From the NCBI GenBank assembly GCA_004377135.1, contig SOHS01000160.1, positions 1 through 34,150 on the forward strand: 34,150 nucleotides of DNA, read 5' to 3'. The notes beneath the pieces are model-generated. The model worked only from the letters and a program-made list of their open reading frames with translations, did no database searches and was not told the origin of the DNA. Of the stretch, positions 5,592 to 22,985 are shown piece by piece (positions within the stretch are counted from its first letter, which is position 1; every line of letters begins with the position of its first letter). This DNA comes from Dehalococcoidia bacterium. GTDB taxonomy: Bacteria > Chloroflexota > Dehalococcoidia > GIF9 > AB-539-J10. The translations under genes and the position numbers were made by a program.

Positions 5592-5600
5592 TGGTATAAT
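5592..5600 (+). promoter_or_regulatory. Extended -10 promoter (TGnTATAAT), presumed native tRNA-Ser promoter
   Basis: TGGTATAAT 15 bp upstream of the tRNA-Ser 5' fragment. Confidence 0.6.
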
Positions 5601-5615
5601 TGGCTATGCAATCAA

Positions 5616-5654: not shown

Positions 5655-5772
5655 TTTGTCAGCAGTTGTCACGAACGGTCACTTTACGTTCAAATTAGAA
5701 CTTTTGTGTCAATCACCCGAAACCCGTTTTGTTCGTAAAATACCAACTGGTAACAACCAGTTTCACTATGTC

Positions 5773-5794
5773 TATTAGCAAATTATTAGCAAAA
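5773..5794. repeat. 22-bp repeat TATTAGCAAATTATTAGCAAAA, copy 1 (putative integrase arm sites)
   Basis: Identical to 11416-11437; tandem TATTAGCAAA units. Confidence 0.75.
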
Positions 5795-6155
5795 TTCTAG
5801 CTTTGGTTTATGCGTGAGACAATGACAACAAGGGACTAACAACATACCATAGCAATAAAAACAGCAACGTGGATAACAACTATATATCTAACTAGACGTG
5901 ATATGGAATTTTCAGCTAGGGATTGATGTAGTGTTGAGATGTCTGTGGACAGTGAAGTTTGAGGACGGCTTGAGGCTGTATTGTAGGATTGAACAATCCG
6001 CTATTTTGCCACGCCAGAGTCAACAAGACAGGCGTTCGCGTGATTTCATCCTCACGTGTACTCTGGCAGAAAGGACGTCGCATATCTGACCCCGAATCAT
6101 ATTTGCCCGTTTATGTGTTTAATCGGAGTTCAGAAGCAGATATTTGTGCGGGTGC

Positions 6156-8933: not shown

Positions 8934-10739
8934 TTATTTGTTGATGCCGAGTTTGTCCAGAAGTGAATTATCAGGATTACCGGTTGATAAGTCCCAACCC
9001 AAAGCGCGGTAGTAATCATCCTTCAGCTTCTCCAGGGGAACCACTTCTCCTTTGGTTGGGCCGTCGGGCTTGGGTTCATTTAATAATCTTCCTGGCAGCG
9101 TGTCGTCTTCTCGTGTAATGCCTTCACGCATATTGAATAGCCGTTCCCGACATATAATTCTCATACCTGCTTCTTTCAGATCATCAAATGCCCAAGCTTC
9201 TCCAAATAAGGATGAGACATTCTTATCTACGGAGCCAAATACCTGCCGCCCAAATACACAGCATGGAATGGAATCTGCGATCATCTGGCCAATAGCCATA
9301 TTCTTTACCTGCTCCCCTTTGCCTTCTAATTGCAGTCTTGTTCCATCATGGATTTCCACTCTAGCCACCACTCCGTAACCATGATGGCATCCTCCCCGAT
9401 TGTTAATCGCAAATTGTAGGGCTTGGCCGTTGGCACCCCGGCACTCATAGCCACCAAGCTCCAGACCTTTAGCCTGTATGGCAAATGACTCAGACCCTTT
9501 AATTTCTTGTGATGCTCTTCTCACCCCTTCTGATAGCAGCAAGCCGAACCCCTCTTGACTCACTATTTTCTTCAGCATCGCAATCATCGCTTTATCGTCG
9601 CCAAACCGAAGCTCAATGCCATCGGTGTCTGTTGTCCCTATAAGCCCCTTTTCAAAGCATTCCATGGCAAAGCCAATACTTGATCCGGCTGACATGGTGT
9701 CAATACCATTTTCATCACATATCTGGTTCGCAGCAATAATAGCATCCAGTTTGTCAACCCCACAACTCGGGCCAAAGGCATAAATTGTCTCGTACTCAGG
9801 GCCATCACAGTGTGCGCCCTGATAAGGCCCTTTTTCGACCTCCATATATAGAGAACAAGGTGTAGGACAAAAGGGACCACAAGGCTTGTTCTGCCAGGTC
9901 CACTCTTTCTCATGAGAGGGGAAGCTCAGCCTCTCGGCACCTTCAAATGTTCCTCCTTGCCAGTTTCGTGTAGGCAGCAGCCCCAGCTTATTTAGTGTAT
10001 CAACGCTCATGCGTGTACCGTAGCGGCGCCACAAAGTTGCCCATTGTTCGTTTTCCTTTACTCTACTCAAGATATCCTTTCTTATCTTTTCAAATCCGTC
10101 CCTGTCACCAACTTCTATCTTTCCATCTCCATAGATCACTATCCCCTTAAGCTTTTTAGACCCCATAACACAGCCTGAACCCCCTCTGCCAAAAGCACGA
10201 TAGACAGGACCATCAACCATGATAGCCGCGTATCTAAGCAACCTTTCTCCGGCCGGACCAATTGCCATTGTGGCTGCCTTCCTTGCCGATAAGCCTCCCA
10301 GCATTACTCGCTGTGCTTCACCGGATTCCATACCCCACAAAGGGGTGGCGTCCTTGAACTCAACCTTCTGGTTATTTATCTCAAGATAAGTCGGAGAATC
10401 AGCAATGCCGGCAACGTCAATGGCCCATAAACCAGCCTTTCTCATTTGATGTCCAATCGTGCCGCTGGACATTGCATATAAATAGATGCCAGTCAGTGGC
10501 GACTTGGTATTAATAACTGTCTTGGAAGAATAGGACAAATTTGTACCGTTTGATGGGCCAGCAGTAAATATAAGGTGATTCTTCTCACCTAAAGGGTCAA
10601 TCCGCGGGGGTACTGAGTTGTATAAAAGATAGGCTCCCAGACCTCTACCCCCTATATACTGGTTAATTATCCTATCTGGGATCTCTTCGACTCGGTAAGA
10701 CCTGTTCGACAGGTCTATCCTCAGTATCTGGTTTGCCAT
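8934..10739 (-). CDS. aor: Tungsten-containing aldehyde:ferredoxin oxidoreductase family protein
   Basis: ILRIDLS, KSPLTG, GRGGSGCVMGSKKLK, CxxxCxxxC, PEYET, NRGGCH; start moved to ATG 10739 (MANQILR), which has an AAGGAG RBS. Confidence 0.9.
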   Translation of the reverse strand: MANQILRIDLSNRSYRVEEIPDRIINQYIGGRGLGAYLLYNSVPPRIDPLGEKNHLIFTAGPSNGTNLSYSSKTVINTKSPLTGIYLYAMSSGTIGHQMRKAGLWAIDVAGIADSPTYLEINNQKVEFKDATPLWGMESGEAQRVMLGGLSARKAATMAIGPAGERLLRYAAIMVDGPVYRAFGRGGSGCVMGSKKLKGIVIYGDGKIEVGDRDGFEKIRKDILSRVKENEQWATLWRRYGTRMSVDTLNKLGLLPTRNWQGGTFEGAERLSFPSHEKEWTWQNKPCGPFCPTPCSLYMEVEKGPYQGAHCDGPEYETIYAFGPSCGVDKLDAIIAANQICDENGIDTMSAGSSIGFAMECFEKGLIGTTDTDGIELRFGDDKAMIAMLKKIVSQEGFGLLLSEGVRRASQEIKGSESFAIQAKGLELGGYECRGANGQALQFAINNRGGCHHGYGVVARVEIHDGTRLQLEGKGEQVKNMAIGQMIADSIPCCVFGRQVFGSVDKNVSSLFGEAWAFDDLKEAGMRIICRERLFNMREGITREDDTLPGRLLNEPKPDGPTKGEVVPLEKLKDDYYRALGWDLSTGNPDNSLLDKLGINK

Positions 10740-11079
10740 ACATTTGCTCCTTTCGTCATCAAGCGTCTCGTTGAACTTGGCTATCCAGGGCATGATTTCC
10801 TATTTTGAGTCAAGGTAGTCAACGGCCTCGAAGCAGGCGCGTGATGCCTTCACTCACCAGGTACATATAAATGCAATCACTAATCTCCTGGTCTCTGACA
10901 GAATGGCTTATGAAAACATCATGACTCGCGAATCTATAAATACCATAGTGCGGACACAAAGTCAAAGAACAGGGACTTTAATATAGGAGAGAAGCGACAC
11001 CAGGGACACTTTTTTAGCCTCTGGATGCTACTTGCCTCTTTGAATCTTCCCTGTGAAGAACCGCGGGTCAAGATAAATT

Positions 11080-11947: not shown

Positions 11948-13252
11948 ATGAAAAATGCTAAGGAAGTTAAGAAATCTGCCGGCTCAGCTAGTTCTGATTT
12001 ACTTCTATCTGATCAGGGCAGCAAGGCTGAGAAATATTATCATGACCTTGTAGCTTTGAGTCGAGTCTCGGCGGCAATCAGTGGTCTACTGGACTTGGAT
12101 GCTATTCTTAATATTGGCTTAGATAATGTGCTTAACATCATGAACGGGACCGTTGGAGGAATAATGCTCCTGGATGAACCTAGTCAGACATTATCCTACC
12201 AAGTCTATCACGGTCTGTCTGATACGTATGCTGAAGAAATGCGTCTAAAAGTTGCCGAGGGAATTGCCGGAAAAGTAGCTCAAAGCGGCAGGGCAATACT
12301 AGTGGAGGACATTTCCTCAGAATCAAATGCCGCTCGGATTGACCTGATAAGTTCAGAAGGTTTAAAGGCATTCATAAGCGTCCCCCTCCGAGCGAAAGAC
12401 AATGTTCTAGGGGTGATGAATGTTGCTAGCCATATGTCGCATCGCTTTACCAAAGAAGATGTGCATCTCCTGCACTCGATTGGGGATCAACTTGGCACAG
12501 CCATTGAGCAGGCAAGACTTCATGAGAGGCTTAGGAAGGCACGGGAACGATTACGCAAACTTGCACGACAGAACCTTGTGGCAGAGGAGGAGGAACGGAG
12601 GAGAATTGCTCGTGAGCTACATGATGAGACCAGTCAATCTCTCTCCGGGATAGCACTTCAGCTAGAAGCGCTGTTGGAAATGTCCTCGAAGTCTGGTAAT
12701 CAAGATGCTGAATTAATTGCTGGACTGAAGAAAGTCCAATCGCTGACAGTGCAGGTACATAAAGAAGTAAGTAGGGTAATTTCCAATCTCCACCCTGCTG
12801 TATTGGATACGCTGGGGTTAGTCGCTGCTGTTCGCCAGCATGCCCACAGTAGGCTTCAGCCCTTGAACATTAACGTAACAATGGAGGTTAGAGGGACTGA
12901 GATTAGGTTTCCTCCTGATGTAGAAGCTGCTATTTTCCGCGTTGTCCAGGGAGCCATTGGCAATATTGTCAAGCATTCTAAAGCAAAGAATGCTTCCATA
13001 GTGCTGGTGTATCAACCAGATGAGTTCTCGCTACGTATTAGCGATGATGGGCAAGGATTTGATGTTTCCAAACTCACCGATGTAGAGGAAAGTGGGCGAG
13101 GCCGTGGATTATTCAGTATGAGAGAGAGGATCGGCTTCCTTGGCGGCACCAGCGGTGTTGAGTCTAAGATTGGAGCAGGAACTACGCTTTGGGCTAAAGT
13201 TCCAATAGGTCAAGACATTATATATGACGAAAATAAGGGTACTGGTGACTGA
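11948..13252 (+). CDS. Cytoplasmic GAF-domain sensor histidine kinase (HisKA_3, NarX/NreB-like)
   Basis: GAF domain, EEERRRIARELHDE H-box, NIVKHS, DDGQGFD, GRGLFSMRER; no TM segment. Confidence 0.92.
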   Translation: MKNAKEVKKSAGSASSDLLLSDQGSKAEKYYHDLVALSRVSAAISGLLDLDAILNIGLDNVLNIMNGTVGGIMLLDEPSQTLSYQVYHGLSDTYAEEMRLKVAEGIAGKVAQSGRAILVEDISSESNAARIDLISSEGLKAFISVPLRAKDNVLGVMNVASHMSHRFTKEDVHLLHSIGDQLGTAIEQARLHERLRKARERLRKLARQNLVAEEEERRRIARELHDETSQSLSGIALQLEALLEMSSKSGNQDAELIAGLKKVQSLTVQVHKEVSRVISNLHPAVLDTLGLVAAVRQHAHSRLQPLNINVTMEVRGTEIRFPPDVEAAIFRVVQGAIGNIVKHSKAKNASIVLVYQPDEFSLRISDDGQGFDVSKLTDVEESGRGRGLFSMRERIGFLGGTSGVESKIGAGTTLWAKVPIGQDIIYDENKGTGD

Positions 13253-13877
13253 CGACCATGCCATCATACGCGATGGTATTTGTGCCTTGCTTTCTCTCAC
13301 CGGGGATATAGAAGCAGTAGGTGTGGCCGCCAATGGAAAGGAAGCATTAGAAATGGTCAGGGAGCTTACGCCTGATGTGGTACTCATGGATATCGCTATG
13401 CCTATTATGGGCGGGGTGGAGGCTATAAGAAGGATACGTAAGGAATTTCCCAAGGTAAAAGTATTGGCGCTGACCCAATATGATGACAAAGCTTATGTAT
13501 TCCCAGTGATTGAAGCTGGAGCCTCTGGCTTCATCAGTAAGACAGCAGCATCTTCGGAACTTACCGCTGGTATCCGCTCCGTTCATCGGGGGGATTCCTT
13601 CCTGTCTCCTTCCGTAGCGAGGTTTTTAGTCGAGGATTATCAACAAATAGCCAGTATGAAAGGAAGTCAGGATCCCTACGAGCAGCTAACGAATCGGGAA
13701 AGAGAAGTGCTTAAACTGGTGGCGGAGGGACATACTACCCAAGAAATAGCGGCTATGTTAGTGCTTAGCCCAAAAACAGTGGAGAGGCATAAGACCAATC
13801 TTATGAGCAAGCTTGATATCCACAATCGTACTGAGCTGGTTAAATATGCCCTGCGCAAGGGCATTATCACCGTCTGA
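13224..13877 (+). CDS. NarL/LuxR-family DNA-binding response regulator
   Basis: DDH, PDVVLMDIAMP receiver; LTNREREVLKLVAEG...LSPKTVERH HTH. Confidence 0.95.
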   Translation: MTKIRVLVTDDHAIIRDGICALLSLTGDIEAVGVAANGKEALEMVRELTPDVVLMDIAMPIMGGVEAIRRIRKEFPKVKVLALTQYDDKAYVFPVIEAGASGFISKTAASSELTAGIRSVHRGDSFLSPSVARFLVEDYQQIASMKGSQDPYEQLTNREREVLKLVAEGHTTQEIAAMLVLSPKTVERHKTNLMSKLDIHNRTELVKYALRKGIITV

Positions 13878-14098
13878 GATTATTACCTCGTAGTCTTCGC
13901 GATACTACTTATTTCCCATACCCCACTAATGGGAAGCGTTATCCACATAAATGAGCGATTAACTGTAGAAAATTGCGGTGATATTTCCCTACCTTCTGGG
14001 GTAAACACCTCTATTCCTTCAGTAGACTGGTTATTATAATTTGTAGTAGCAGGCTAAAATAAGCTTCTAAAAACGTGTAGTTGGCAAGGGGGTGCAAG

Positions 14099-14926
14099 AT
14101 GGAAAAGAACGCTAAAATTCTGCTGGTGGATGATGAGTCAGAGTTCATCGAGGATATGCGAGCTAAATTACTGGCAAAAGGTTGGCAGGTGTTTACCGCT
14201 GGTAATAGATTACAGGCAGAAGAGATAGCGCATCACGAAAAACCTGACCTGATTATTTTAGGAACAATAATGCCGCGTGGAGATGCCTTTCATTTGCACC
14301 AGTGGTTAAAACAGAACCCCAATTTCAGAGAAGTGCCTCTCATTGTGGTTGATGCCCCACCGGAAAAGCGTCTGATTAAGGGGTGGCGTATGGACGAGGG
14401 CTTGAAGCTTGAAGCCGAACAATATTTAATCAAGCCAGTCGAGTCAGATTCAGTAGTGGTCTGGGCTGAGAAATTCCTGGATAAGACACTGAGGAGAATC
14501 AAGGTACTGGTGGTAGATGACCATTCTGTAGTCAGGGAAGGAATTTGCGCACTGCTGAGTCTGCAAAAAGACATGGAGGTAATAGGTGAAGCTGTTGACG
14601 GAAGAGATGCTATTGATAAAGTGCAGCGTCTCATGCCGAACGTAGCGGTGATGGATATAGTCATGCCGGTGATGAGCGGACTTGAAGCAACGAAACGAAT
14701 AACCGAGGAATACCCGGAGACAAAGATTTTGATTCTAACCCAATATGACGAAGAAGAGAACATGTTTGTTGCTAAGCAGGTAGGGGCTTACGGCTTTATT
14801 GCCAAGAGCGCTGCCAGTTCCGACCTCTTGACTGGCATAAGGACAGTAGGTGGAGGAAGATACTTCCCCCGGTCTTTTGCCTACGTGTCTGCCAACTGGC
14901 CGGAGGGTCTGGATAAAAATAAATAA
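14099..14926 (+). CDS. Tandem receiver-domain protein (pseudo-REC + REC), no output domain
   Basis: REC1 ILLVDDE...PDLIILGTIMP lacks the phospho-Asp; REC2 VLVVDDH...AVMDIVMP; ATG 14099 follows a GGGGGTG RBS. Confidence 0.85.
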   Translation: MEKNAKILLVDDESEFIEDMRAKLLAKGWQVFTAGNRLQAEEIAHHEKPDLIILGTIMPRGDAFHLHQWLKQNPNFREVPLIVVDAPPEKRLIKGWRMDEGLKLEAEQYLIKPVESDSVVVWAEKFLDKTLRRIKVLVVDDHSVVREGICALLSLQKDMEVIGEAVDGRDAIDKVQRLMPNVAVMDIVMPVMSGLEATKRITEEYPETKILILTQYDEEENMFVAKQVGAYGFIAKSAASSDLLTGIRTVGGGRYFPRSFAYVSANWPEGLDKNK

Positions 14927-14980
14927 TCCCCTTCGGAAAGCCTTACCCCAACCTGCTGGGTTATGAAGGAGGATATTGGT

Positions 14981-17671
14981 TTGCAGCCGATAACCATTAC
15001 TCTTGATGGTCGTGAGGTAAGTGGCTATCCGGGGACGACCATCCTAGAACTGGCGAAGGAATCAGGTATAGATATCCCCACACTCTGTCATGCCCCTCAA
15101 CTAACTTCGGTTGGGGCTTGCCGTGTCTGTCTGGTAGAAGACGAACGAAATAGTACCTTATTGGCGTCTTGTGTTACACCGATAGCATCAGGGATGGTAA
15201 TCAACACGCATTCCCCGCGAGTTATAGAGCGCCGCAAGACCATAGTTAAGCTGATGCTTGCCAGCCATCCTGATTCTTGCTTGGTATGCGATAAAGGCAA
15301 TCGCTGCCAGCTACGCCAAATTGCCTCGGACCTGGGCATCGGATTGGTAGAGCTTCAAAGAATTCCCCAGATGGCTAGCATTGAGGAGGTCAACCCCTTC
15401 CTTGAACGGGATTTGAGCAAGTGCATATTGTGTGCCAAATGTATTCGCGCCTGCCAGGAACTAGTCGTTGAGGGTGCTATTGACTACTTTCAACGAGGAT
15501 TTACGACCATACCGGCGACACTGAACAATTTGCCGCTGGAAAATTCCGAGTGCACTTTCTGTGGAACTTGTGTGGCCCTGTGCCCTACAGGCGCGCTAAC
15601 TGAAAAGGAGAAAATATATAGAGGAACAACCCAGACTGTTGTCCAGACAACCTGTCCCTTCTGTGGCTGTGGCTGTAGCATTTGCCTGGAAGTCAAGGAT
15701 GGACATGTAGCGCGGATCACGCCGGGCAAGGAAAGATCGGTGCACAAAGGCACGCTATGTGTGAGGGGAAGCTATGGCTGTGATTTTATCCACAGCCCGG
15801 ATAGGTTGCTCAAACCCTTGGTCAAGAGTAATGGTAATTTTGAGGAACTGTCCTGGGAAGAAGCTTTAGAACTGGTAGGCACTCAATTCCAGCGAATAAA
15901 GGATGAATCTGGCTGTGACAGCCTAGCCATCCTGGGTTCCTCTAAGTGCACTAACGAAGAGAATTACCTTTTGCAGAGATTCGCCAGATCCGTGCTGGGC
16001 ACCAACAATATTGATAATGGCGGTCGCTTGTATAACTCTGCCAGCTGTGTCGGCCTGGGATCTTCACTTGGCTTCCCCGGTACTACAAACTATCTTAGCG
16101 GTCTGGAACAATCAGAGCTTATATTAGTTATTGGGGCCGATCCCAGTTCCTCAGCACCTGCCGTCGGTTATGCCATAAAGCGTGCTGTCAAAAGGCAAGG
16201 TGCCAAGTTACTGTTGATAGACCCTCGACAGACAAAGCTCCTTATGTTTGCCCATCTTTGGGTGCAACCCGAGGTTGGCACTGATGTGGCTCTTATAAAT
16301 GGCCTGGCCAAGGTGATTATCGACGAAGGCTTGCTGGACGAGGAATTCGTCGCCAGAAGTACGGATAACTTTGAAGCTTTTAACGAAGGCTTGAAAAAAT
16401 ATACCCTGGAGTATGTTGAGGAGACTACTGGTGTTTCAGGTCAACAAATTCGTGCTGCTGCTCGACTATACGCCAGGGCAAGCCGGGCAGCAATTGTCTA
16501 TGGCACAGGAATCACGCAGCATGTGACAGGAACTGACAGTGTGAAGGCTCTGGCAAACTTGGCGTTGCTGACGGGCAATATTGGGCATAAGAGAGGCGGC
16601 GTCTACGCGCTGCAAAGAGAAAACAATGGGCAAGGCGCCTGCGACATGGGAACATTACCCATATTCCTCCCCGGATATCAGAGTGTAGTGGACGCCCAGG
16701 CTAGGAGGAAGTTCGAAGAAAGTTGGGGAGTAAGCTCGCCGGCTGAGCCTGGGCTAACAGCCTTGGAAATCATGAAGCAAGCAAAAAAAGAAAAGATTAA
16801 GGGCATGTACATCGTAGGAGAAAATCCTGCCTTGAGCTTTCCAAATTCGAGACTCATTATTGAGATTCTAGCCTCCATCGATTTCCTGGTAGTCCAGGAC
16901 ATGTTCCTTACGGAAACGGCTAAACTGGCAAACGTGGTTTTACCTGCGGCAAGCTTCGCCGAAAAGGACGGGACATTCACCAACTTCGAGGGGAGGGTAC
17001 AAAGGGTGCAAAAGGCAATCCCTCCTCTGGGCGAAAGTTTGCCAGACTGGGAGATAATCCTGCGACTGGCTGACAAAATCGGGGCTCCGATGCCATATTC
17101 CTCTCCCCAACAAGTTATGGACGAAATAGTTGACACTTGTCAGCTAGCAACCTATAGCTCATATGAAGGGAATGGCCATACAGAGCCAGAGGCGCAGAGC
17201 CTGTATCAGGCTGAGTCGAGTAGCCATTGGGGAGTCGGGCGCATACATGGGGGGCAGTTCCCGAAAGGGTTTGCCCGCTTTTGCCCGGTTGCGTATGTTC
17301 CACCGACAAAGGCGAAGAAGGGCTATCCCTTTACCTTGCTAACCGGGGGTATCCCTAATCATTTCGGCACTGGCTCTAGAAGCTCCAGGTCTACGCGATT
17401 GAAGAAATTCTCCCCGGAGGCTTTTGTGGAAATTTGTGAGTCTGACGCCAGAAAACTTGCCATCACTGTGGGTGAGAAGGTCAAGGTCATCTCACCTGTA
17501 GGCGAGGTGACTACAATAGCCAAGATTACCGATACACTACGTCAGGGGATGCTTTTTATGCCAGTTTCATACCCAGAGACTCCGGTTAATGAGCTATTCG
17601 ACATTGTCTTAAATTCCGAAACAAAAGCGCCTTCACTGAAAGCATGCAGCGTAAAAATAGAGAAATTGTAA
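14981..17671 (+). CDS. FdhA/NuoG-like molybdopterin-oxidoreductase-fold protein with degenerate active site
   Basis: N-terminal [2Fe-2S], HxxxCxxC cluster, 2x[4Fe-4S], CPFCGCGC cluster, MopB body and binding domain; likely TTG start at 14981 with AGGAGG at 14967-14972. Confidence 0.88.
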   Translation: MQPITITLDGREVSGYPGTTILELAKESGIDIPTLCHAPQLTSVGACRVCLVEDERNSTLLASCVTPIASGMVINTHSPRVIERRKTIVKLMLASHPDSCLVCDKGNRCQLRQIASDLGIGLVELQRIPQMASIEEVNPFLERDLSKCILCAKCIRACQELVVEGAIDYFQRGFTTIPATLNNLPLENSECTFCGTCVALCPTGALTEKEKIYRGTTQTVVQTTCPFCGCGCSICLEVKDGHVARITPGKERSVHKGTLCVRGSYGCDFIHSPDRLLKPLVKSNGNFEELSWEEALELVGTQFQRIKDESGCDSLAILGSSKCTNEENYLLQRFARSVLGTNNIDNGGRLYNSASCVGLGSSLGFPGTTNYLSGLEQSELILVIGADPSSSAPAVGYAIKRAVKRQGAKLLLIDPRQTKLLMFAHLWVQPEVGTDVALINGLAKVIIDEGLLDEEFVARSTDNFEAFNEGLKKYTLEYVEETTGVSGQQIRAAARLYARASRAAIVYGTGITQHVTGTDSVKALANLALLTGNIGHKRGGVYALQRENNGQGACDMGTLPIFLPGYQSVVDAQARRKFEESWGVSSPAEPGLTALEIMKQAKKEKIKGMYIVGENPALSFPNSRLIIEILASIDFLVVQDMFLTETAKLANVVLPAASFAEKDGTFTNFEGRVQRVQKAIPPLGESLPDWEIILRLADKIGAPMPYSSPQQVMDEIVDTCQLATYSSYEGNGHTEPEAQSLYQAESSSHWGVGRIHGGQFPKGFARFCPVAYVPPTKAKKGYPFTLLTGGIPNHFGTGSRSSRSTRLKKFSPEAFVEICESDARKLAITVGEKVKVISPVGEVTTIAKITDTLRQGMLFMPVSYPETPVNELFDIVLNSETKAPSLKACSVKIEKL

Positions 17672-17720
17672 CACCTCGGCTTGTCTTCGACAAAAGGATG
17701 GGGACAAGCCCCCGTGCTAC
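17668..17720. repeat. GTAG-type REP-like imperfect palindrome
   Basis: GTAACAC..GGCTTGTC ... GACAAGCC..GTGCTAC; overlaps the stop codon of the fdhA-like gene. Confidence 0.55.
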
Positions 17721-17750
17721 TTAATATAAGAATAGAAAGGGTGAGGCTTC

Positions 17751-18242
17751 ATGAATAAAGCGAAGACCATCACAAAGGCTGACCTGGCACGAATTAATAT
17801 CATCATTTCTGAATATAGTAGTCAGCAGAAGTGGGCAATGATACCGCTGCTGCAAAAAATCCAAAGTGAGTTCGGGTTTATCCCTCCTCAGTCTGTACCA
17901 TTTATAGCCAGAAGCTTGGGGGTTTTCCCCAGTCAGGTACAAGGGGTGATTAGTTTTTATACCCAGCTCTACACTCAGCCACGAGGCAAAAAAATTGTCA
18001 GAGTTTGTCGAGGGACAGCTTGCCATGTGCGGGGAGGAAAGACGATACTGAAATTGGTTAAGCAGCACCTGGATATAGAAGAGGGCGAGACTACCCCTGA
18101 TTTTGAATACACACTGGAAACCGTAGCCTGTATCGGCGTCTGTGCCCTAGCGCCTAATATGGTCGTTAGTGACCATGTCCACGGTCATATGAACCCCAAA
18201 AAAGTGGAGCAACTGTTTAAGCATCAAGAGGGTGAAAAGTAA
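17751..18242 (+). CDS. NuoE/HydC-like [2Fe-2S] subunit
   Basis: CRGTACHVRGG and ACIGVCALAP thioredoxin-like 2Fe-2S motifs. Confidence 0.92.
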   Translation: MNKAKTITKADLARINIIISEYSSQQKWAMIPLLQKIQSEFGFIPPQSVPFIARSLGVFPSQVQGVISFYTQLYTQPRGKKIVRVCRGTACHVRGGKTILKLVKQHLDIEEGETTPDFEYTLETVACIGVCALAPNMVVSDHVHGHMNPKKVEQLFKHQEGEK

Positions 18243-21200
18243 TATGGAAAGCCATTGCACCATTTTTATTTGTCAGGGAACAGGATGCCTCTCCAGCAGC
18301 TCTGAAGCTGTCTATGATGCGCTTAAAGAAGAAATAAAACGGCAAAGGATAAGCTATGCCGAGGTGGATTTCACTGGTTGTCACGGCTTTTGCGAGCAGG
18401 GTCCTAATGTAGTCATTGAACCTGAAGGTATTTTCTATACCCATGTCCAGGCCGAGGATGCTCCAGAAATTGTCACTTCTCATCTTCGAGATGGCAAGCC
18501 TGTGGAACGCCTTTTCTACCATGATCCGGTAACTGGCGAAGCCATACCACGCTATTCAGAGATAAACTTCTACAAAAAGCAGCAGCGTGTCATTCTGCGA
18601 AATTGCGGGCAAATCAACCCGGAAAAAATTGAGCATTACATTGATCGTGGAGGTTATCAGGCGTTGAGAAAGGCTCTTCTAATAACTTCCGAGCAGGTTA
18701 TTGAGGAGATTAAGAAATCTGGCCTTCGCGGGCGAGGTGGCGCTGGTTTTCCCACCGGCCTCAAGTGGGAGTTTTGCCGTAATGCTCCCGGAGAAAAGAA
18801 ATACGTCATCTGCAATGCCGATGAAGGCGACCCCGGTGCTTTTATGGACCGCTCCATCCTGGAAGCAGATCCCCACGCTGTCGTTGAGGGGCTGACCATT
18901 GCTGGATATGCCATGGGTGCCAATGAGGGCTACATCTATGTCCGTGCTGAGTATCCCTTAGCAGTAAAGCGAGTTCACACTGCCTTAGAGCAAGCCCGAC
19001 AAAGGGGCTTTTTGGGTAAAGATATTCTCGGCTCAGGCTTTGATTTTGTGGTGCACATCAAAGAAGGCGCCGGGGCCTTTGTTTGTGGCGAGGAAACAGC
19101 TCTAATGGCTTCCATTGAGAGCCGACGGGGCATGCCTCGTCCCCGCCCCCCATTTCCCGCCCAATCAGGTCTGGAAGGAAAGCCTACTACTATCAATAAT
19201 GTAAAGAGTCTGGCTTCCATTCCCGTTATCATTGATCGAGGGGCTGATTGGTTCGCCGGCATAGGTACCGAAAAGAGCAAAGGGACGGCTGTCTTTGCCC
19301 TCACGGGGAAGATTGCCAACAGTGGGTTGGTGGAGGTACCTATGGGCACTCCCCTATCCACCATTATTTTTGATGTCGGGGGTGGTATCCCCCGGAGCAA
19401 GCAGTTTAAGGCGGTGCAGACGGGTGGTCCTTCAGGTGGCTGTATTCCTGCCCGGTTTCTCGATTCCCCCGTGGAATATGAAACACTGGCTCAATTAGGT
19501 TCGATTATGGGCTCTGGCGGTATGGTGGTGCTGGACGAGACCACCTGTATGGTAGAGATAGCCAGGTATTTCTTGAGCTTCACTCAATCTGAGTCCTGTG
19601 GGAAGTGTGTCCCTTGCCGCCTGGGAACCAGACAAATGCTAGAAATACTGACCAGAATCACTCAGGGCAAAGGACGTGAAGAGGATATGGATACTCTGCT
19701 TACCATAGCCAAGACAGTTAAGGAATGCTCGCTCTGTGGTCTGGGACAGACCTGTCCCAACCCCGTGCTCACCACCATTGAGTACTTCAGAGATGAATAT
19801 GAAACCCACATACAAGAAAAGAAATGCCCGGCTGCTGTCTGCGATGCCCTCATGATATCACCGTGTCAGCATACCTGTCCTGTAGGAATCAATGTTCCCA
19901 AATATGTGGCTCAAATTGCTGACTGTGAGTACCTGGAGGCTGTCAACACCATCAGGGAGCGTAATCCCTTCCCCGCTATTTGCGGCCGCATCTGCCATCA
20001 TCCCTGCGAGGGGAGATGCCGCCGCGGGGAACTCGACGACTCTGTAGCTATCAGGGCGCTTAAGCGCTTTGCCGCCGACTGGTATTTTGACCACATTGGG
20101 GAATTACCTGAACCAGAACCCTTTCCCCTGACTCACAGCCAAAAAGTAGCAGTAGTAGGAGCGGGACCTACAGGGCTGTCCTGCGCCTACTTTCTGGCTC
20201 AGATGGGCTATCCTGTCACGGTCTTCGAAGCCCTCCCCCTAGGCGGGGGCATGCTCTCGGTAGCTATACCTGACTTCCGCTTGCCGCGGGAGGTTATTGA
20301 AAAGGAGATAGATTATATCGCCAAGCGGGGAGTGGAGATAAAATACGACACGCCAATCAATGTAAATTTCACCATAGAAGATATCAAAGATAGTGGCTTT
20401 GAAGCTGTCTTTATTGCCGCTGGGGCTCAAAAGAGCCAGATTATTGGTATACCCGGAGAATTGGAGGACATTGAGGGCTTCTACTATGGTTTGAGATTTC
20501 TCAGAGATGTGAAGTTTGGTAAGTCTATTAAGATTGGACGCAGGGTAGCTGTTATCGGGGGTGGTAATGTAGCCCTTGACTCTTCGCGCACAGCTCTTCG
20601 CCTTGGTGCCGATGAGGTGAGTATCTTTTACCGTCGGTCGCGGGAAGAGATGCCGGTAACTGAGGTGGAGTATGATGAGACTCTGGCTGAAGGCGTCCAG
20701 GTTAATTTCCTCGTCAGCCCCACCCGCCTGGCAAGCGATGACTGGAAAGTGACCGGTTTACAGTGTGTCCACATGAAGCTGGGTGAGCCTGATGCCGGTG
20801 GACGCCGTCGCCCAATTCCTGTTCCTGGCTCAGAGTTTTTTGCTCCAGCGGATACCGTCATTGCTGCTGTGGGGCAGGCTCCAGACCTGTCGTTTTTACC
20901 CCCGGATAGTGCTCTTGAGCGTACTCGGTGGGAAACGCTGGCGGTTGATGAAAACAAATTAGCTACTAATGTTTCCGGGGTCTTTGCTGGGGGGGATTTT
21001 GTCTCCGGGCCGGGCATGGTTATAGAAGCTATTGCAGCTGGCCGGAGAGGGGCCATCGCCATAGACAAATATCTCCAGGGCGATACCTCACGGGTCGAGA
21101 TGTACGACCTGAAGCCCAGCGTCATTGAAGAAGAAGTAATTAGAGAGGAAGAAGAAAGCTGGGAACCACAATTCAGGCCGGAAACACCCCATCTCCCTCT

Positions 21201-21303
21201 CCAGGAGAGGAAAGGTAGCTTTAAAGAGATAGAACTGAGCCTTTCTGAGGAGAAGGCGAGACAGGAGGCTAAGCGTTGCTTAAGATGCGACTTGGAAAAG
21301 TAA
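18232..21303 (+). CDS. NuoF/HydB-like FMN/NADH subunit fused to GltD-like FAD/NADP(H) oxidoreductase
   Basis: CQGTGC/GCHGFC 2Fe-2S; GRGGAGFPTG, NADEGDPGAFM, GEETAL, GGPSGG, CGKCVPCR; then CQHTCP/CGRICHHPCE, GAGPTG, GGGNVALD, YRRS. Confidence 0.92.
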   Translation: MKSNMESHCTIFICQGTGCLSSSSEAVYDALKEEIKRQRISYAEVDFTGCHGFCEQGPNVVIEPEGIFYTHVQAEDAPEIVTSHLRDGKPVERLFYHDPVTGEAIPRYSEINFYKKQQRVILRNCGQINPEKIEHYIDRGGYQALRKALLITSEQVIEEIKKSGLRGRGGAGFPTGLKWEFCRNAPGEKKYVICNADEGDPGAFMDRSILEADPHAVVEGLTIAGYAMGANEGYIYVRAEYPLAVKRVHTALEQARQRGFLGKDILGSGFDFVVHIKEGAGAFVCGEETALMASIESRRGMPRPRPPFPAQSGLEGKPTTINNVKSLASIPVIIDRGADWFAGIGTEKSKGTAVFALTGKIANSGLVEVPMGTPLSTIIFDVGGGIPRSKQFKAVQTGGPSGGCIPARFLDSPVEYETLAQLGSIMGSGGMVVLDETTCMVEIARYFLSFTQSESCGKCVPCRLGTRQMLEILTRITQGKGREEDMDTLLTIAKTVKECSLCGLGQTCPNPVLTTIEYFRDEYETHIQEKKCPAAVCDALMISPCQHTCPVGINVPKYVAQIADCEYLEAVNTIRERNPFPAICGRICHHPCEGRCRRGELDDSVAIRALKRFAADWYFDHIGELPEPEPFPLTHSQKVAVVGAGPTGLSCAYFLAQMGYPVTVFEALPLGGGMLSVAIPDFRLPREVIEKEIDYIAKRGVEIKYDTPINVNFTIEDIKDSGFEAVFIAAGAQKSQIIGIPGELEDIEGFYYGLRFLRDVKFGKSIKIGRRVAVIGGGNVALDSSRTALRLGADEVSIFYRRSREEMPVTEVEYDETLAEGVQVNFLVSPTRLASDDWKVTGLQCVHMKLGEPDAGGRRRPIPVPGSEFFAPADTVIAAVGQAPDLSFLPPDSALERTRWETLAVDENKLATNVSGVFAGGDFVSGPGMVIEAIAAGRRGAIAIDKYLQGDTSRVEMYDLKPSVIEEEVIREEEESWEPQFRPETPHLPLQERKGSFKEIELSLSEEKARQEAKRCLRCDLEK

Positions 21304-21322
21304 AAATAAGCGTTTACCAGAT

Positions 21323-21398
21323 GTCATTGCGAGGAGCGTTAGCGACGAAGCAATCTCGACGGTTGATGCTTAGATTGCTTCGCCTCGCTCGCAATGAC
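21323..21398. repeat. REP/RPE-like nested palindromic element
   Basis: GTCATTGCGAG...CGAAGCAATCT-loop-AGATTGCTTCG...CTCGCAATGAC. Confidence 0.8.
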
Positions 21399-21439
21399 TT
21401 AGAATTTCGAGTTTGTATTTTTGACGTGGGAGGTCAGGC

Positions 21440-22084
21440 ATGAAATCTATTACTAAACAAAAGACTTTTGAGGAAATCGAACAGCAGTTAGACGGGTTTG
21501 ACCGGGTGTATATTGCTGGTTGTGGCACATGCGCCACAATGACTAAAACTGGTGGGCGGGAAGAGGTCTTGGAAATGAGGGAGCGTCTACAAGAACTGGG
21601 CAAGTTAGTCACCGGCTGGATAGTTATCCCTACCGCCTGTGATGAGATGACCGAAGTAGCTGTTAAAGAAAATAATGGAGCCATTCAGAATGCCAAATGT
21701 ATTCTGGTCATGTCCTGTGCTTTAGGAGTGCATAAGCTGAGTACCTATATTGACAAGCCGGTCATTCCAGCCCTGGATACTCTTTTCATAGGCGTCGAGG
21801 ATGGTCCGGGCTGTTTTCAAGAGGTTTGTGCCCAGTGTGGTCAGTGCGTCCTGGGAGAGACTGCTGGCATCTGTCCCCTGACGGCATGTCACAAAGGTTT
21901 GCTGAACGGCCCATGTGGTGGCACCGACAATGGTAAGTGCGAGGTGGATAAGGAAAAGGATTGTGGCTGGACTCTCATATATCAACGACTAAAAGAACAG
22001 GGCCGGCTTGATTTGATGCGTAAGTATCATTCCCCCAGAGATTGCAACGTGGCACCCAGGCCGCGAACGGCCAGGATTACATGA
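21440..22084 (+). CDS. metV: Methylenetetrahydrofolate reductase accessory Fe-S/Zn subunit
   Basis: GCGTCATMTKTGG and CAQCGQC...CPLTACHKGLLNGPCGG...CEV...CGW (MTHFR_C); directly upstream of metF. Confidence 0.9.
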   Translation: MKSITKQKTFEEIEQQLDGFDRVYIAGCGTCATMTKTGGREEVLEMRERLQELGKLVTGWIVIPTACDEMTEVAVKENNGAIQNAKCILVMSCALGVHKLSTYIDKPVIPALDTLFIGVEDGPGCFQEVCAQCGQCVLGETAGICPLTACHKGLLNGPCGGTDNGKCEVDKEKDCGWTLIYQRLKEQGRLDLMRKYHSPRDCNVAPRPRTARIT

Positions 22085-22094
22085 AGGAGGAGCT

Positions 22095-22985
22095 ATGGCA
22101 CCGAGTTTTAGGGAAGTTCTCAAATCTGATAAATTTATAATAACCAGCGAAATCGGTCCACCAAAGGGGACGAACATTGAGAAGATGCTCCACCATATTG
22201 ACCTTCTCAAGGATAAAGTAGATGCGCTGAACGTCACTGACCACCAGAGTTCCGTAATGCGCTTTCCCTCCATTGGTGGCTGCCTGGCCATCAAGGAGAA
22301 AGGTGGCGAGCCTATATTACAGGTGACCTGCCGCGACCGTAATCGCCTTTCCCTTCAAGCCGAGCTTCTCTTCGCATACACCAGAGGCATAAGAAATGTC
22401 CTCTGCCTAACTGGAGATGCTGTTTTAGTTGGCGACCATAAGGAGGCCAAGGGCGTTTTCGACCTGGATTCAGCACAGTTGCTGAAGACAATTCGACAGA
22501 TGGAAGCGGGCAAAGACCTGGGAGGGAATGAACTCGACGGGGCTGTGGAGTTCTGTGCCGGAGCCATAGTCACACCTGAAGCAAACCCGATTGAGCCTCA
22601 GTTAATCAAGTTTGAAAAGAAGATTGAAGCCGGTGCCGAATTCTTTCAGACGCAAGCCATCTATGACCTGGACAAATTTGCTAAGTTTATGGAATATGCC
22701 CGCCAATTCCCGGTCAAGATATTAGCTGGCATTATTCTGCTTGTGTCAGCCAGGATGGCGAAATATATGACCGAAAATGTCCCGGGCGTCTCTGTGCCCC
22801 AGAACTTGATTGACGAGTTAGCGGCTGCCCCCAAAGGCGAGGCAATCAATAAAGGTATAGAAATCGCGGGCCGGATGATTACCACTCTGGAAAAAGAATC
22901 AATATGCGATGGAGTCCATGTCATGGCTATAGGCCGGGAAGAGGTGGTGCCGGATATCCTGAAAGCGGCTGGACTCGCTACCTAG
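22095..22985 (+). CDS. metF: 5,10-methylenetetrahydrofolate reductase
   Basis: EIGPPKG, NVTD, TCRDRNR, LCLTGD, KKIEAGAEFFQTQ. Confidence 0.95.
   Translation: MAPSFREVLKSDKFIITSEIGPPKGTNIEKMLHHIDLLKDKVDALNVTDHQSSVMRFPSIGGCLAIKEKGGEPILQVTCRDRNRLSLQAELLFAYTRGIRNVLCLTGDAVLVGDHKEAKGVFDLDSAQLLKTIRQMEAGKDLGGNELDGAVEFCAGAIVTPEANPIEPQLIKFEKKIEAGAEFFQTQAIYDLDKFAKFMEYARQFPVKILAGIILLVSARMAKYMTENVPGVSVPQNLIDELAAAPKGEAINKGIEIAGRMITTLEKESICDGVHVMAIGREEVVPDILKAAGLAT

What the first reader, a model, noticed from the sequence alone, without database searches (positions are those of the whole stretch)
14981..22985. Candidate new methylene-THF reductase complex: MetVF with a Mo-ligand-less FdhA-like / NuoE / NuoF-GltD module
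Seen: five co-oriented, closely spaced genes (fdhA-like, nuoE, nuoF-gltD, metV, metF) behind a two-component system. Established: characterised acetogen MetVF enzymes act alone or with RnfC2 or HdrABC-MvhD, and HydABC/Stn-type NuoEFG modules bifurcate electrons. Inference: a HydABC-like core with an FMN/NADH site and a separate FAD/NADP(H) site may serve as the electron module of MetVF. It would couple the methylene-/methyl-THF step to NAD(H), NADP(H) and possibly ferredoxin in a forward or reverse Wood-Ljungdahl pathway. I do not recognise this combination as characterised.
Basis: partly seen in the sequence, partly recalled or inferred. Interest (0 to 1): 0.8.

Follow-up and report, generated by a model that had tools for sequence, protein, structure and literature searches.

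The report
Possible new methylene-THF reductase complex
A conserved five-gene cassette in uncultured sediment bacteria places the folate reductase MetVF behind an NADH- and NADPH-binding iron-sulfur module with a dead formate-dehydrogenase-like subunit, which suggests an undescribed way of powering a key step of the Wood-Ljungdahl pathway, though no physical complex has been shown.

Summary
The window carries fdhA-like, nuoE, a nuoF-gltD fusion, metV and metF on one strand, behind a GAF kinase, a LuxR regulator and a double-receiver protein. The FdhA-like protein lacks the Cys/Sec-His-Arg active-site residues.

The order is conserved in all 27 orthologous loci found among 250 other genomes of the class (named Dehalococcoidia in records of close homologues), across 14 further families. 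It also occurs in three Desulfobacterota MAGs.

The three upstream proteins are a permuted relative of Stn/NfnABC (Bfu-type) transhydrogenases. The GltD NADP(H) module sits on the C-terminus of the NuoF-like subunit, where Bfu enzymes carry the ferredoxin-docking 2x[4Fe-4S] domain.

Elsewhere the same NuoE/NuoF-GltD core is followed by a catalytic Sec/Cys FdhA, by a site-less BfuA plus NiFe hydrogenase subunits, or by an FeFe hydrogenase. By that analogy MetVF is the catalytic partner here (confidence 0.55).

The main rival is a stand-alone transhydrogenase merely encoded beside MetVF, as stnABC lies beside metVF in Sporomusa ovata. No binding, co-transcription or activity was shown. I found no description of this combination in eight of nine full-text searches. 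I rate it a new variant of a known kind, interest 0.7.

The parts
11948..13252 (+). GAF-HisKA_3-HATPase histidine kinase
   Evidence: Pfam. Homologues lie upstream of the cassette in L004, L006, L008, L010, L012 and L022 and in L076. A 50% identical paralogue flanks the genome's second metVF locus.
13224..13877 (+). LuxR-type response regulator (REC + GerE)
   Evidence: Pfam. It is 63% identical to its paralogue at the second metVF locus.
14081..14926 (+). Double-receiver (2x REC) protein
   Evidence: Pfam finds two Response_reg stretches. Homologues at 43-71% identity lie directly upstream of the FdhA-like gene in 10 of the 18 orthologous loci that reach that far: L004, L005, L006, L008, L010, L012, L013, L014, L015 and L022. 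The paralogue at the second locus is 54% identical.
14963..17671 (+). FdhA-like / BfuA-like iron-sulfur subunit without the Mo/W-ligand residues (alternative start TTG 14981)
   Evidence: Domains come (TIGR01591 scores 704 bits against a cut-off of 666). Tyr357-Asn358 and Gln551 replace Cys-His and Arg. None of 18 orthologues has Cys, Sec or His at these positions. The Cys ligands of the [2Fe-2S] cluster, of the His-ligated [4Fe-4S] cluster and of the Mo-proximal [4Fe-4S] cluster (C231, C234, C238, C266) are invariant in 14 sequences, and so are seven of the eight in the two ferredoxin-type motifs; the eighth, C164, is Asp in the majority.
17751..18242 (+). NuoE/BfuC-like thioredoxin-like [2Fe-2S] subunit
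   Evidence: PF01257 and NF005722 match. Its end overlaps the start of the fusion gene, as it does in 16 of 20 orthologous loci.
18232..21303 (+). NuoF/BfuB-like FMN-NAD(H) subunit fused to a GltD-type FAD-NADP(H) module (alternative start ATG 18244)
   Evidence: Residues 10-541 best match Bfu B subunits (7t2r_B, 784 bits). Residues 543-1020 best match NfnABC BfuA (9bov_A residues 102-567) and StnC (8oh5_C). Homology to BfuB ends after 'KKCPAAVC', and no CxxCxxCxxxCP motif follows.
21322..21398 (.). Palindromic REP-like repeat that inflates the nuoF-gltD/metV gap to 136 nt
   Evidence: It folds into a hairpin. Three copies occur in the genome. Depth is very high, with loose ends on both sides, in sediment and cold-seep libraries. 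Most orthologues have gaps of 8-82 nt.
21440..22084 (+). MetV (zinc/FeS subunit of MetVF-type methylene-THF reductase)
   Evidence: PF12225 matches at 5e-34. It is 64-81% identical in the orthologous loci.
22095..22985 (+). MetF (flavin-containing methylene-THF reductase subunit)
   Evidence: PF02219 matches at 4e-42. The score is far below the cut-offs of the NAD(P)H-type MetF equivalogs (TIGR00676: 86 bits against 294).

Best explanation
The five genes form one conserved cassette that I think encodes a soluble multi-subunit methylene-THF reductase.

Shown by sequence comparison:
- NuoE plus the NuoF part form a Bfu/HydBC-type core that binds NAD(H) at FMN.
- The GltD part binds NADP(H) at FAD. 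It sits where Bfu enzymes carry the ferredoxin-docking 2x[4Fe-4S] domain.

Inferred by analogy with the NiFe-HydABCSL type of Bfu enzyme:
- The FdhA-like subunit, which kept its chain of five FeS clusters but lost its catalytic residues, acts as a wire and scaffold.
- MetV and MetF are the separately encoded catalytic pair at the end of that wire.

The most coherent reaction is inference only: NADH is oxidised at FMN, one branch runs downhill to methylene-THF, and the other runs uphill to NADP+. That gives 2 NADH + NADP+ + CH2-THF -> 2 NAD+ + NADPH + CH3-THF. It would be reversible, so it could also serve methyl-THF oxidation. The adjacent two-component system probably switches between this system and the genome's second MetVF system.
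For: (1) Conserved linkage. I fetched the 70 best-scoring fusion loci from 250 other genomes of the class. All 27 loci of the window's orthologue clade have metV directly downstream. All 23 loci that reach far enough have metF. All 18 loci that reach upstream have the FdhA-like gene and nuoE. The fusion-to-metV gap has a median of 36 nt and is at most 82 nt in 22 of 27 loci. The clade is monophyletic and spans 14 families besides the window's own.

(2) Second phylum. The same five-gene order, with a dead FdhA-like gene where it is readable, occurs in 3 Desulfobacterota MAG contigs (L078, L084, L087).

(3) Modularity. The same NuoE/NuoF-GltD core is followed by different catalytic partners elsewhere.
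- In 24 loci it is followed by an FdhA homologue. Of 21 that could be read, 19 have Cys or TGA(Sec)-His plus Arg.
- In 12 of 12 loci with a short site-less BfuA it is followed by NiFe HydS and HydL.
- In 3 of 3 tested loci of other phyla it is followed by FeFe HydA.
Only the dead-FdhA version is followed by MetVF.

(4) Missing ferredoxin site. The BfuB ferredoxin-like B3/B4 domain, shown to be the ferredoxin site in NfnABC (PMC12018979, passages), is replaced by GltD. A stand-alone enzyme would therefore lack the canonical third-substrate site.

(5) Selection on the dead subunit. All FeS ligands of the FdhA-like subunit but one (C164, Asp in most orthologues), including those of the Mo-proximal cluster, are invariant, and mean column identity is 67% over its whole length.

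(6) Precedent. Type III MTHFR uses RnfC2, a PF01512 flavoprotein, as the NADH module of MetVF (PMC8760232, passages). MetV-RnfC fusions are common.

(7) Parallel in the same genome. The second metVF copy follows a GltD-ferredoxin-MvhD fusion with overlapping genes. That order is conserved in 14 of 14 orthologous loci. GltD-type modules therefore recur as MetVF neighbours.

(8) Isolation from other pathway genes. The cassette lies apart from the other Wood-Ljungdahl genes found: ACS on contig C131 and FTHFS on C26. It holds the only PF01512 protein found in the ~90% complete genome.
Against: - No direct evidence exists for a complex, for co-transcription or for activity.
- In Sporomusa ovata, stnABC lies directly downstream of metVF, yet Stn purifies as a MetVF-free trimer with transhydrogenase activity (PMC7483475).
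- Stn's own FdhF-like domain is also inactive and serves assembly (PMC10482914). A dead domain therefore does not by itself demand a partner.
- Type II MetVF enzymes work alone with reduced ferredoxin in vitro (PMC8760232).
- In the window the nuoF-gltD/metV gap is 136 nt and holds a strong hairpin. Five of 27 orthologous loci have gaps of 170-581 nt.
- The cassette is patchy. None of the 7 other genomes of the window's own family has it.
- All orthologous loci descend from one clade, so the 27 are not independent events.
- Whether MetV docks on the FdhA-like subunit or on the GltD domain is unknown.
Confidence: 0.55

Rival explanations
1. The first three genes encode a stand-alone, domain-permuted Stn/NfnABC-like transhydrogenase that balances NADH, NADPH and perhaps ferredoxin pools. 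MetVF is a separate type II reductase. The two are co-located only because both serve the Wood-Ljungdahl pathway.
For: - Both halves of the fusion score best against Stn/NfnABC/Bfu chains.
- The GltD part has the same circular permutation as the Stn insertion: it begins 'PC..CP' and ends 'RCLRC'. It also has the equivalents of StnC Lys170 and Arg239 and a GxGxxA motif (PMC10482914 and PMC7483475, passages).
- S. ovata stnABC lies beside metVF, but Stn purifies alone.
- Stn's FdhF-like domain is inactive too.
Against: - The ferredoxin-docking B3/B4 domain of BfuB is absent. In Stn the GltD module feeds the BfuA chain, whereas here BfuA carries no substrate site at all. The five-cluster chain would then lead nowhere.
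- Every other version of this core that I examined has a catalytic partner encoded directly downstream.
- The dead-FdhA version was never found without MetVF: 0 of 27 loci, plus 0 of 4 in the genome-contig scan.
- The cassette is not embedded in a larger pathway cluster, unlike the S. ovata genes.
Confidence: 0.3
2. The FdhA-like subunit is still a catalyst. It might hold a pterin cofactor with no protein ligand, or act on a substrate other than formate. The trimer would then be an NAD(P)-linked oxidoreductase for an unknown compound, linked to MetVF only at pathway level.
For: - The protein scores above the TIGR01591 cut-off (704 bits against 666).
- It keeps full length, including the Molydop_binding domain.
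- It is strongly conserved throughout.
- Some enzymes of this superfamily work without a protein ligand to the metal (recalled, not tested).
Against: - All three formate-dehydrogenase active-site residues are replaced.
- The ligand position varies among orthologues: Tyr in 14, His in 2, Ser in 1 and Val in 1 of 18. That is not expected for a catalytic residue.
- Purified Stn, whose StnC was annotated as a formate dehydrogenase, showed no formate activity. Its FdhF-like domain is described as inactive.
Confidence: 0.1
3. The adjacency has no functional meaning. It would be an accident of assembly or a recent rearrangement in this genome.
For: - The window has a 136-nt gap holding a repeat element.
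- The source is a fragmented genome of 179 contigs.
Against: - The same order occurs in 27 loci from 26 other genomes and in 3 contigs from another phylum.
- The genes are tightly spaced or overlap.
Confidence: 0.03

Closest known systems
Stn / NfnABC (Nfn-Bfu) electron-bifurcating transhydrogenase (Sporomusa ovata 8OH5, Caldicellulosiruptor 9BOV, Thermococcus 9N5U)
   Same: It uses the same set of modules: NuoE-like, NuoF-like with FMN, a GltD-type FAD/NADP(H) module and an inactive FdhF/NuoG-like FeS subunit. These are the best PDB matches for both halves of the fusion. The GltD module has the same circular permutation and the same Lys170 and Arg239 equivalents. In S. ovata the genes also lie beside metVF.
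   Different: In Stn/NfnABC the GltD module is inserted into the BfuA subunit after residue ~101. Here it is fused to the C-terminus of the BfuB subunit, where it replaces the ferredoxin-like B3/B4 domain. The FdhA-like subunit here is a full 902-aa FdhA homologue with no insertion. The gene order differs, and MetVF is always downstream.
NiFe-HydABCSL of Acetomicrobium mobile (Type 3 Bfu enzyme, 7T2R)
   Same: It combines a site-less BfuA, which carries a molybdopterin-oxidoreductase-like remnant, with a separately encoded catalytic heterodimer that feeds it. 7t2r_B is the best PDB match of the NuoF part (784 bits) and 7t2r_A matches the FdhA-like protein over residues 8-537. Class relatives have exactly this layout with the NuoF-GltD core.
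   Different: The catalytic pair here would be MetV/MetF rather than HydS/HydL. The BfuB subunit carries GltD instead of the ferredoxin site.
Type III MTHFR: RnfC2-MetV-MetF of Acetobacterium woodii
   Same: MetVF receives electrons from NADH through an added PF01512 (NuoF/RnfC-family) FMN flavoprotein with FeS clusters (PMC8760232, passages).
   Different: It has one extra subunit rather than three. It has no NuoE, no BfuA-like chain and no NADP(H) site, and it does not bifurcate.
Type IV MTHFR: MetVF-HdrCBA-MvhD of Moorella thermoacetica
   Same: It is a multi-subunit MetVF complex proposed to use NADH and to reduce a second, still unknown acceptor by bifurcation. The genome's second locus carries an MvhD domain.
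   Different: Its electron module is HdrABC/MvhD, unrelated to the NuoEF/FdhA-like module in the window.
NAD-dependent formate dehydrogenase FdsABG (Rhodobacter capsulatus 6TG9/6TGA)
   Same: It is among the best full-length PDB matches of the FdhA-like subunit (594 bits; the top match, 9wxb_B, is another formate dehydrogenase alpha subunit at 601 bits), and it combines FdhA with NuoE-like and NuoF-like subunits.
   Different: The active-site Cys386, His387 and Arg587 are replaced here. FdsB has no GltD module.

Membership tests
Bfu (HydABC-type) family as defined in PMC9304861 | BfuB has an FMN/NADH domain, an SLBB domain and the NuoF [4Fe-4S] domain | tested here: met
   Complex1_51K matches 160-331, SLBB 354-403 and NADH_4Fe-4S 442-526. 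The best PDB matches are Bfu B subunits.
Bfu (HydABC-type) family as defined in PMC9304861 | BfuB has a C-terminal ferredoxin-type 2x[4Fe-4S] domain (IPR017896; clusters B3/B4, the ferredoxin site) | tested here: not met
   Homology to BfuB stops after 'KKCPAAVC'. No ferredoxin-type Fer4 family hits the fusion, only Fer4_20 of GltD. No CxxCxxCxxxCP motif is present. The InterPro model itself was not run.
Bfu (HydABC-type) family as defined in PMC9304861 | BfuC is a NuoE-like thioredoxin-like [2Fe-2S] protein, and BfuA has 2Fe-2S and 4Fe-4S ferredoxin-type domains | tested here: met
   PF01257 matches the 163-aa protein. Fer2_4, NADH-G_4Fe-4S_3, Fer4_7 and Molybdop_Fe4S4 match the 902-aa protein.
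Bfu (HydABC-type) family as defined in PMC9304861 | Electron bifurcation between NAD(H), ferredoxin and a third substrate | not testable with these tools
   This needs enzyme assays.
Stn / NfnABC transhydrogenase | GltD-type FAD/NADP(H) module with the Stn-type permutation, the Lys170 equivalent and a GxGxxA motif | tested here: met
   Alignment to 8oh5_C and 9bov_A shows 'ALKRF', 'IPDFRLP' and 'GGGNVA', and the module starts with 'PCQHTCP' and ends with 'RCLRC'.
Stn / NfnABC transhydrogenase | GltD module inserted into the NuoG/FdhF-like subunit (StnC/NfnA, about 960-1240 aa) | tested here: not met
   The FdhA-like protein has no Pyr_redox_2 or Fer4_20 domain. GltD is fused to the NuoF-like subunit instead.
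Stn / NfnABC transhydrogenase | [quoted passage not shown] | not testable with these tools
   This needs enzyme assays.
Formate dehydrogenase alpha subunit (TIGR01591) | Whole-protein score above the curated cut-off | tested here: met
   The score is 704.1 bits against a cut-off of 666.25.
Formate dehydrogenase alpha subunit (TIGR01591) | Mo/W-ligating Cys or Sec followed by His, plus the active-site Arg | tested here: not met
   Tyr357-Asn358 and Gln551 occupy these positions. None of 18 orthologues has them, whereas 19 of 21 FdhA genes next to paralogous cores do.
MetVF-type methylene-THF reductase (types II-IV of PMC8760232) | MetF (PF02219) is paired with an adjacent MetV (PF12225) | tested here: met
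   Both domains are present and the genes lie 10 nt apart.
MetVF-type methylene-THF reductase (types II-IV of PMC8760232) | The partner module is none (II), RnfC2 (III) or HdrCBA-MvhD (IV) | tested here: not met
   The neighbours are FdhA-like, NuoE and NuoF-GltD. No RnfC or other PF01512 gene was found elsewhere in the genome. The window holds no Hdr or MvhD gene. An MvhD domain occurs only at the second locus.

The most novel reading that the evidence does not exclude
A Bfu-type bifurcating core in which NADP+ has replaced ferredoxin as the low-potential acceptor, plugged into MetVF through a dead formate dehydrogenase. NADH oxidised at FMN would be split between methylene-THF (downhill) and NADP+ (uphill). 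The free energy of the most exergonic Wood-Ljungdahl step would then be stored as NADPH. This would supply the long-sought 'second acceptor' of a bifurcating methylene-THF reductase. The same NAD(H)/NADP(H) core would define a whole ferredoxin-independent branch of the Bfu family, with FeFe, NiFe, FDH and MTHFR members spread over many phyla.
Probability: 0.3. Interest if true: 0.85.

Novelty: new variant of a known kind. Interest (0 to 1): 0.7.

Why it matters
- **Open question.** Methylene-THF reduction is the most exergonic step of the Wood-Ljungdahl pathway. Its physiological electron donor and any energy coupling remain disputed for MetVF enzymes. PMC8760232 calls this an energetic dilemma, and the second acceptor of the Moorella complex is unknown.
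- **What this adds.** A conserved cassette that wires MetVF to both NAD(H) and NADP(H) offers a concrete, testable fifth type of reductase.
- **Ecology.** The organisms that carry it are uncultured. Close homologues are named Dehalococcoidia in public records, and the out-of-class examples are Desulfobacterota MAGs. Pieces 90-99% identical occur in libraries labelled cold seep and marine sediment. Energy budgets for such organisms depend on this step.
- **Enzyme family.** The NuoF-GltD core lacks the ferredoxin-type domain that PMC9304861 uses to define the Bfu family. A survey on that definition would probably have missed it, so the family may be wider than described.

Tried and rejected
- **Complex prediction.** I submitted FdhA-like residues 1-780 with MetV, each as a 14-row alignment. 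The tool gave no verdict (score 0.09 against a mark of 0.32). This says nothing either way.
- **RNA libraries.** Short contigs 90-99% identical to parts of nuoF-gltD, metV and metF occur in four cold-seep and marine-sediment libraries. Two of them are firmly labelled RNA. No listed piece bridges 21304-21439, and DNA carry-over cannot be excluded. This gives no statement on co-transcription or expression.
- **Promoter and terminator scan.** No sigma-70-like site and no T-tract terminator was called on the + strand in the 136-nt gap. The counts equal those of shuffled sequence, so the scan is uninformative.
- **Solved MetV structures.** None was found; the best E-value was 0.3. No structural template exists for a MetV interface.
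- **MetV fusions in longer proteins.** Among 28 hits I found fusions to MetF, to RnfC-like proteins and to histidine kinases. None was fused to FdhA-like or GltD modules.
- **Literature.** Of nine full-text searches, eight looked for the combination; the ninth is. I read passages from the papers cited. No description of MetVF linked to a NuoE/NuoF-GltD/FdhA-like module turned up. One paper (PMC11216029, passages) notes a glutamate-synthase domain on HydB of an archaeal hybrid hydrogenase. Table 1 of PMC7483475 lists 891-898-aa 'StnC' homologues in Peptococcaceae that may belong to this architecture, but I could not reach those genomes.
- **Chance adjacency.** Rejected on the conservation data.

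Full report
**1. What is there**

Positions 11948-22985 of the + strand hold eight co-oriented genes.
- The first three are a GAF-HisKA_3 histidine kinase, a LuxR-type response regulator and a protein with two receiver domains.
- The FdhA-like protein has 902 aa and runs from 14963 to 17671.
- NuoE runs from 17751 to 18242.
- The fusion protein has 1023 aa and runs from 18232 to 21303. It joins a NuoF/HydB-like part to a GltD-like part. The NuoF part has an N-terminal thioredoxin-like 2Fe-2S domain, the FMN/NADH domain, SLBB and the NuoF [4Fe-4S] domain. The GltD part has Fer4_20 and Pyr_redox_2.
- MetV (21440-22084) and MetF (22095-22985) follow.

Close homologues of the fusion are named Dehalococcoidia or Chloroflexota bacterium in public records. 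The genome is a 1.24-Mb, 179-contig assembly rated 89.65% complete. It also encodes acetyl-CoA synthase (CdhC family, contig C131) and formyl-THF synthetase (C26), so a Wood-Ljungdahl pathway is plausible. The fusion is the only PF01512 (NuoF/RnfC-type) protein found in the genome.

**2. The FdhA-like subunit is catalytically dead but otherwise intact**

It scores above the curated cut-off of the FDH alpha model (704 against 666 bits). Its closest solved relatives are NAD-dependent formate dehydrogenases. In the alignment to R. capsulatus FdsA:
- Cys386-His387 is replaced by Tyr357-Asn358.
- Arg587 is replaced by Gln551.

The numbering was counted from that alignment. The catalytic role of these residues is recalled knowledge.

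In 18 orthologues the ligand position is Tyr (14), His (2), Ser (1) or Val (1), and none has the following His. By contrast, the ligands of the [2Fe-2S] cluster, of the His-ligated cluster and of the Mo-proximal cluster are invariant in 14 sequences, as are seven of the eight Cys in the two ferredoxin-type motifs; the eighth, C164, is Asp in most orthologues. Mean column identity is 67%.

**3. The three upstream proteins are a permuted Stn/NfnABC (Bfu-type) module**

Residues 10-541 of the fusion match the B subunits of bifurcating NiFe and FeFe hydrogenases, NfnABC and Stn at 640-784 bits. Residues 543-1020 match best the GltD insertion of NfnABC BfuA (9bov_A 102-567, 408 bits), then archaeal Nfn-Bfu and StnC, all ahead of NfnB.

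The module has the same circular permutation as the Stn insertion. It begins with 'PC..CP' and ends with 'RCLRC', which in NfnB lies at the N-terminus. It also has the equivalents of StnC Lys170 and Arg239 and a GxGxxA NADP-type motif. The roles of these features come from passages of PMC10482914 and PMC7483475.

The position is the difference. In Stn/NfnABC the module is inserted into the BfuA subunit. Here it follows the Bfu-specific 'KKCPAAVC' of the BfuB subunit and replaces the C-terminal ferredoxin-like 2x[4Fe-4S] domain. That domain (clusters B3/B4), together with the BfuC C-terminal domain, forms the ferredoxin-binding site and the low-potential exit in NfnABC (PMC12018979, abstract and passages). 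It is also one of the InterPro domains by which the Bfu family was defined (PMC9304861, passages). A survey on that definition would probably miss this fusion. The Bfu functionalities listed in that paper's main text include no folate enzyme, and the words tetrahydrofolate, folate, methylene and MetF do not occur in it. Its supplements were not available.

**4. Conservation of the linkage**

I searched 250 other genomes of the same class with the fusion. One of them, G244, is unpublished and enters only this denominator. I fetched all 70 places that ranked above the first NuoF-only match and mapped them with the window's proteins.

Twenty-seven loci from 26 genomes in 14 families besides the window's own form the orthologue clade. 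Their fusions are 68-83% identical to the window's, with one at 60%. The clade is monophyletic in a FastTree of 74 fusions. Within it:
- All 27 loci have metV directly downstream.
- The 23 loci that reach far enough have metF.
- The 18 loci that reach upstream have the FdhA-like gene and nuoE.
- nuoE overlaps the fusion gene in 16 of 20 loci.
- The fusion-to-metV gap has a median of 36 nt (range 8-581) and is at most 82 nt in 22 of 27 loci.
- The metV-to-metF gap has a median of 14 nt.

The window's 136-nt gap is explained by an inserted palindromic repeat.

The double-receiver gene lies directly upstream in 10 of 18 loci, often with the kinase and regulator. None of the 7 other genomes of the window's own family carries the cassette, while genomes of other families have copies 81-82% identical. 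This fits movement of the cassette as a unit, but I did not test that.

It kept 80 loci, and 16 of them hold both halves of the fusion in one alignment. Four of the 16 have metV, or metV and metF, directly downstream: one Dehalococcoidia contig (L076) and three Desulfobacterota MAG contigs.
- L078 is from a Desulfomonilaceae MAG.
- L084 and L087 are labelled delta proteobacteria.
- In L087 the FdhA-like gene is again without Cys/Sec-His and Arg.

**5. The same core with other catalytic partners**

The remaining class loci divide as follows.
- 24 loci have the order nuoE, nuoF-gltD, fdhA. Of 21 FdhA genes that could be read, 19 have Cys or an in-frame TGA (6 loci) followed by His, plus the Arg.
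- 12 loci have the core followed by a short site-less BfuA of about 650 aa. In all 12 this is followed directly by NiFe-hydrogenase small and large subunits (Pfam, tblastn). One further locus is a more distant NiFe variant.
- Two loci are odd (L072 and L073, see items noticed in passing).
- Four loci are cut by contig ends.

In other phyla the fusion is followed by an FeFe hydrogenase HydA in 3 of 3 tested loci, or by a short HoxU-like protein in 3 of 3 tested.

The NiFe layout is that of the structurally characterised Type 3 Bfu enzyme NiFe-HydABCSL. There a site-less BfuA passes electrons between the BfuBC core and a separately encoded catalytic dimer (PMC9304861, passages). Chains 7t2r_A and 7t2r_B match the window's proteins. 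In the dead-FdhA clade, MetV and MetF occupy the place of that dimer.

**6. A second, parallel system in the same genome**

Contig C167 carries paralogues of the kinase (50% identical), the regulator (63%) and the double-receiver protein (54%). Between them lie a 703-aa GltD-ferredoxin-MvhD fusion, a second MetV (40% identical to the window's) and a second MetF (68%). The genes overlap. This order is conserved in 14 of 14 orthologous loci of the class sample, and 10 of those 14 genomes also carry the window-type cassette. GltD-type NAD(P)H modules are thus recurrent MetVF neighbours. The two systems look like alternatives under related regulators.

**7. How it most likely works**

Established by sequence comparison are an FMN/NAD(H) site, an FAD/NADP(H) site in the place of the ferredoxin site, a five-cluster chain without a substrate site, and MetVF.

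Inferred is that MetVF is the catalytic end of the chain.

On recalled standard potentials, methylene-THF is about -200 mV and NAD(P)H is -320 mV. PMC9304861 quotes a physiological NADH value near -280 mV. A physiological NADPH value near -370 mV is recalled. On these numbers the most coherent reaction is NADH oxidation at FMN, split between methylene-THF and NADP+. A plain confurcation, NADH + NADPH to 2 methyl-THF, is also possible. The direction of operation and the docking site of MetV (FdhA-like subunit or GltD domain) are open.

**8. Against this reading**

- The known counter-example is S. ovata. There stnABC lies directly downstream of metVF, yet Stn purifies as a MetVF-free trimer.
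- Stn's FdhF-like domain is also inactive and is needed only for assembly.
- Type II MetVF enzymes act alone.
- The one complex prediction gave no verdict, and the RNA libraries showed no bridging piece. Both are listed under tried and rejected.
- All orthologous loci descend from one clade, so their number overstates independence.

**9. Comparison and novelty**

The published types of methylene-THF reductase are MetF alone, MetVF, MetVF-RnfC2 and MetVF-HdrCBA-MvhD (PMC8760232, passages). The published Bfu functionalities do not include a folate enzyme. Eight full-text searches aimed at the combination found no description of it; a ninth, concerned formate dehydrogenase residues. A glutamate-synthase domain on HydB has been noted once, for an archaeal hybrid hydrogenase, with ferredoxin guessed as its partner (PMC11216029, passages).

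I therefore rate the cassette a new variant of known kinds, namely Bfu/Stn-type modules and MetVF-type reductases. It fails one defining feature of each family under which it could be filed. The linkage is well supported. The complex itself is unproven.

Noticed in passing
G000 contig C167 (locus L003) 79-6674: A second metVF locus lies here. Its order is GAF kinase, LuxR regulator, a 703-aa GltD-ferredoxin-MvhD fusion, MetV, MetF and a double-receiver protein, with overlapping genes. The order is conserved in 14 of 14 orthologous loci of the class sample, and 10 of those genomes also have the window-type cassette. It looks like another undescribed MetVF partner module.
   Followed up: partly
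window 21322-21398: A palindromic REP-like element has arms of the type 'CATTGCGAGGAGCG...CGCTCGCAATG'. At least 3 copies occur in this genome. In four cold-seep and marine-sediment libraries its depth is tens of times that of its flanks in three libraries (684-792 against about 10-50) and several-fold in the fourth, with many different flanks.
   Followed up: partly
L025, L048, L051, L054-L056, L058, L059, L061, L064-L066: Relatives in the same class encode NuoE, NuoF-GltD, a site-less BfuA and NiFe hydrogenase small and large subunits. This is a NiFe-HydABCSL-like enzyme whose ferredoxin domain is replaced by an NADP(H) module.
   Followed up: partly
L027-L069 (24 loci), L077, L080: Loci with the order NuoE, NuoF-GltD and a catalytic FdhA carry Cys or in-frame TGA (selenocysteine). 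They are candidate formate dehydrogenases linked to both NAD(H) and NADP(H).
   Followed up: partly
L081, L082, L130; L074, L088, L090: In MAGs labelled Hyphomicrobiales, Prolixibacteraceae and Ignavibacteriales the fusion is followed by an FeFe hydrogenase HydA. In MAGs labelled Eubacteriales, Promethearchaeota (Loki) and Bacteroidetes it is followed by a short HoxU-like protein.
   Followed up: partly
proteins P0308, P0309: A MetV domain 54-55% identical to the window's MetV is fused to HisKA and HATPase histidine-kinase domains. It may be a sensor built on the MetV fold. This is of interest because two-component systems flank both metVF loci.
   Followed up: no
L072 (G128:C48) and L073 (G194:C73): L072 has the order metV, metF, nuoE, nuoF, cut by the contig end. 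This is the order found in Sporomusa ovata. L073 has a fusion only 57% identical to the window's, directly followed by metV, with metF on the opposite strand.
   Followed up: no
window 1212-4213 (- strand) and 8934-10793 (- strand): The window also holds a four-subunit 2-oxoacid:ferredoxin oxidoreductase and an aldehyde:ferredoxin oxidoreductase. The organism therefore does use ferredoxin-linked enzymes.
   Followed up: no
L087 7075-7080: The FdhA-like gene of this Desulfobacterota contig continues in another reading frame after residue ~470. This is either a frameshift or an assembly error.
   Followed up: no
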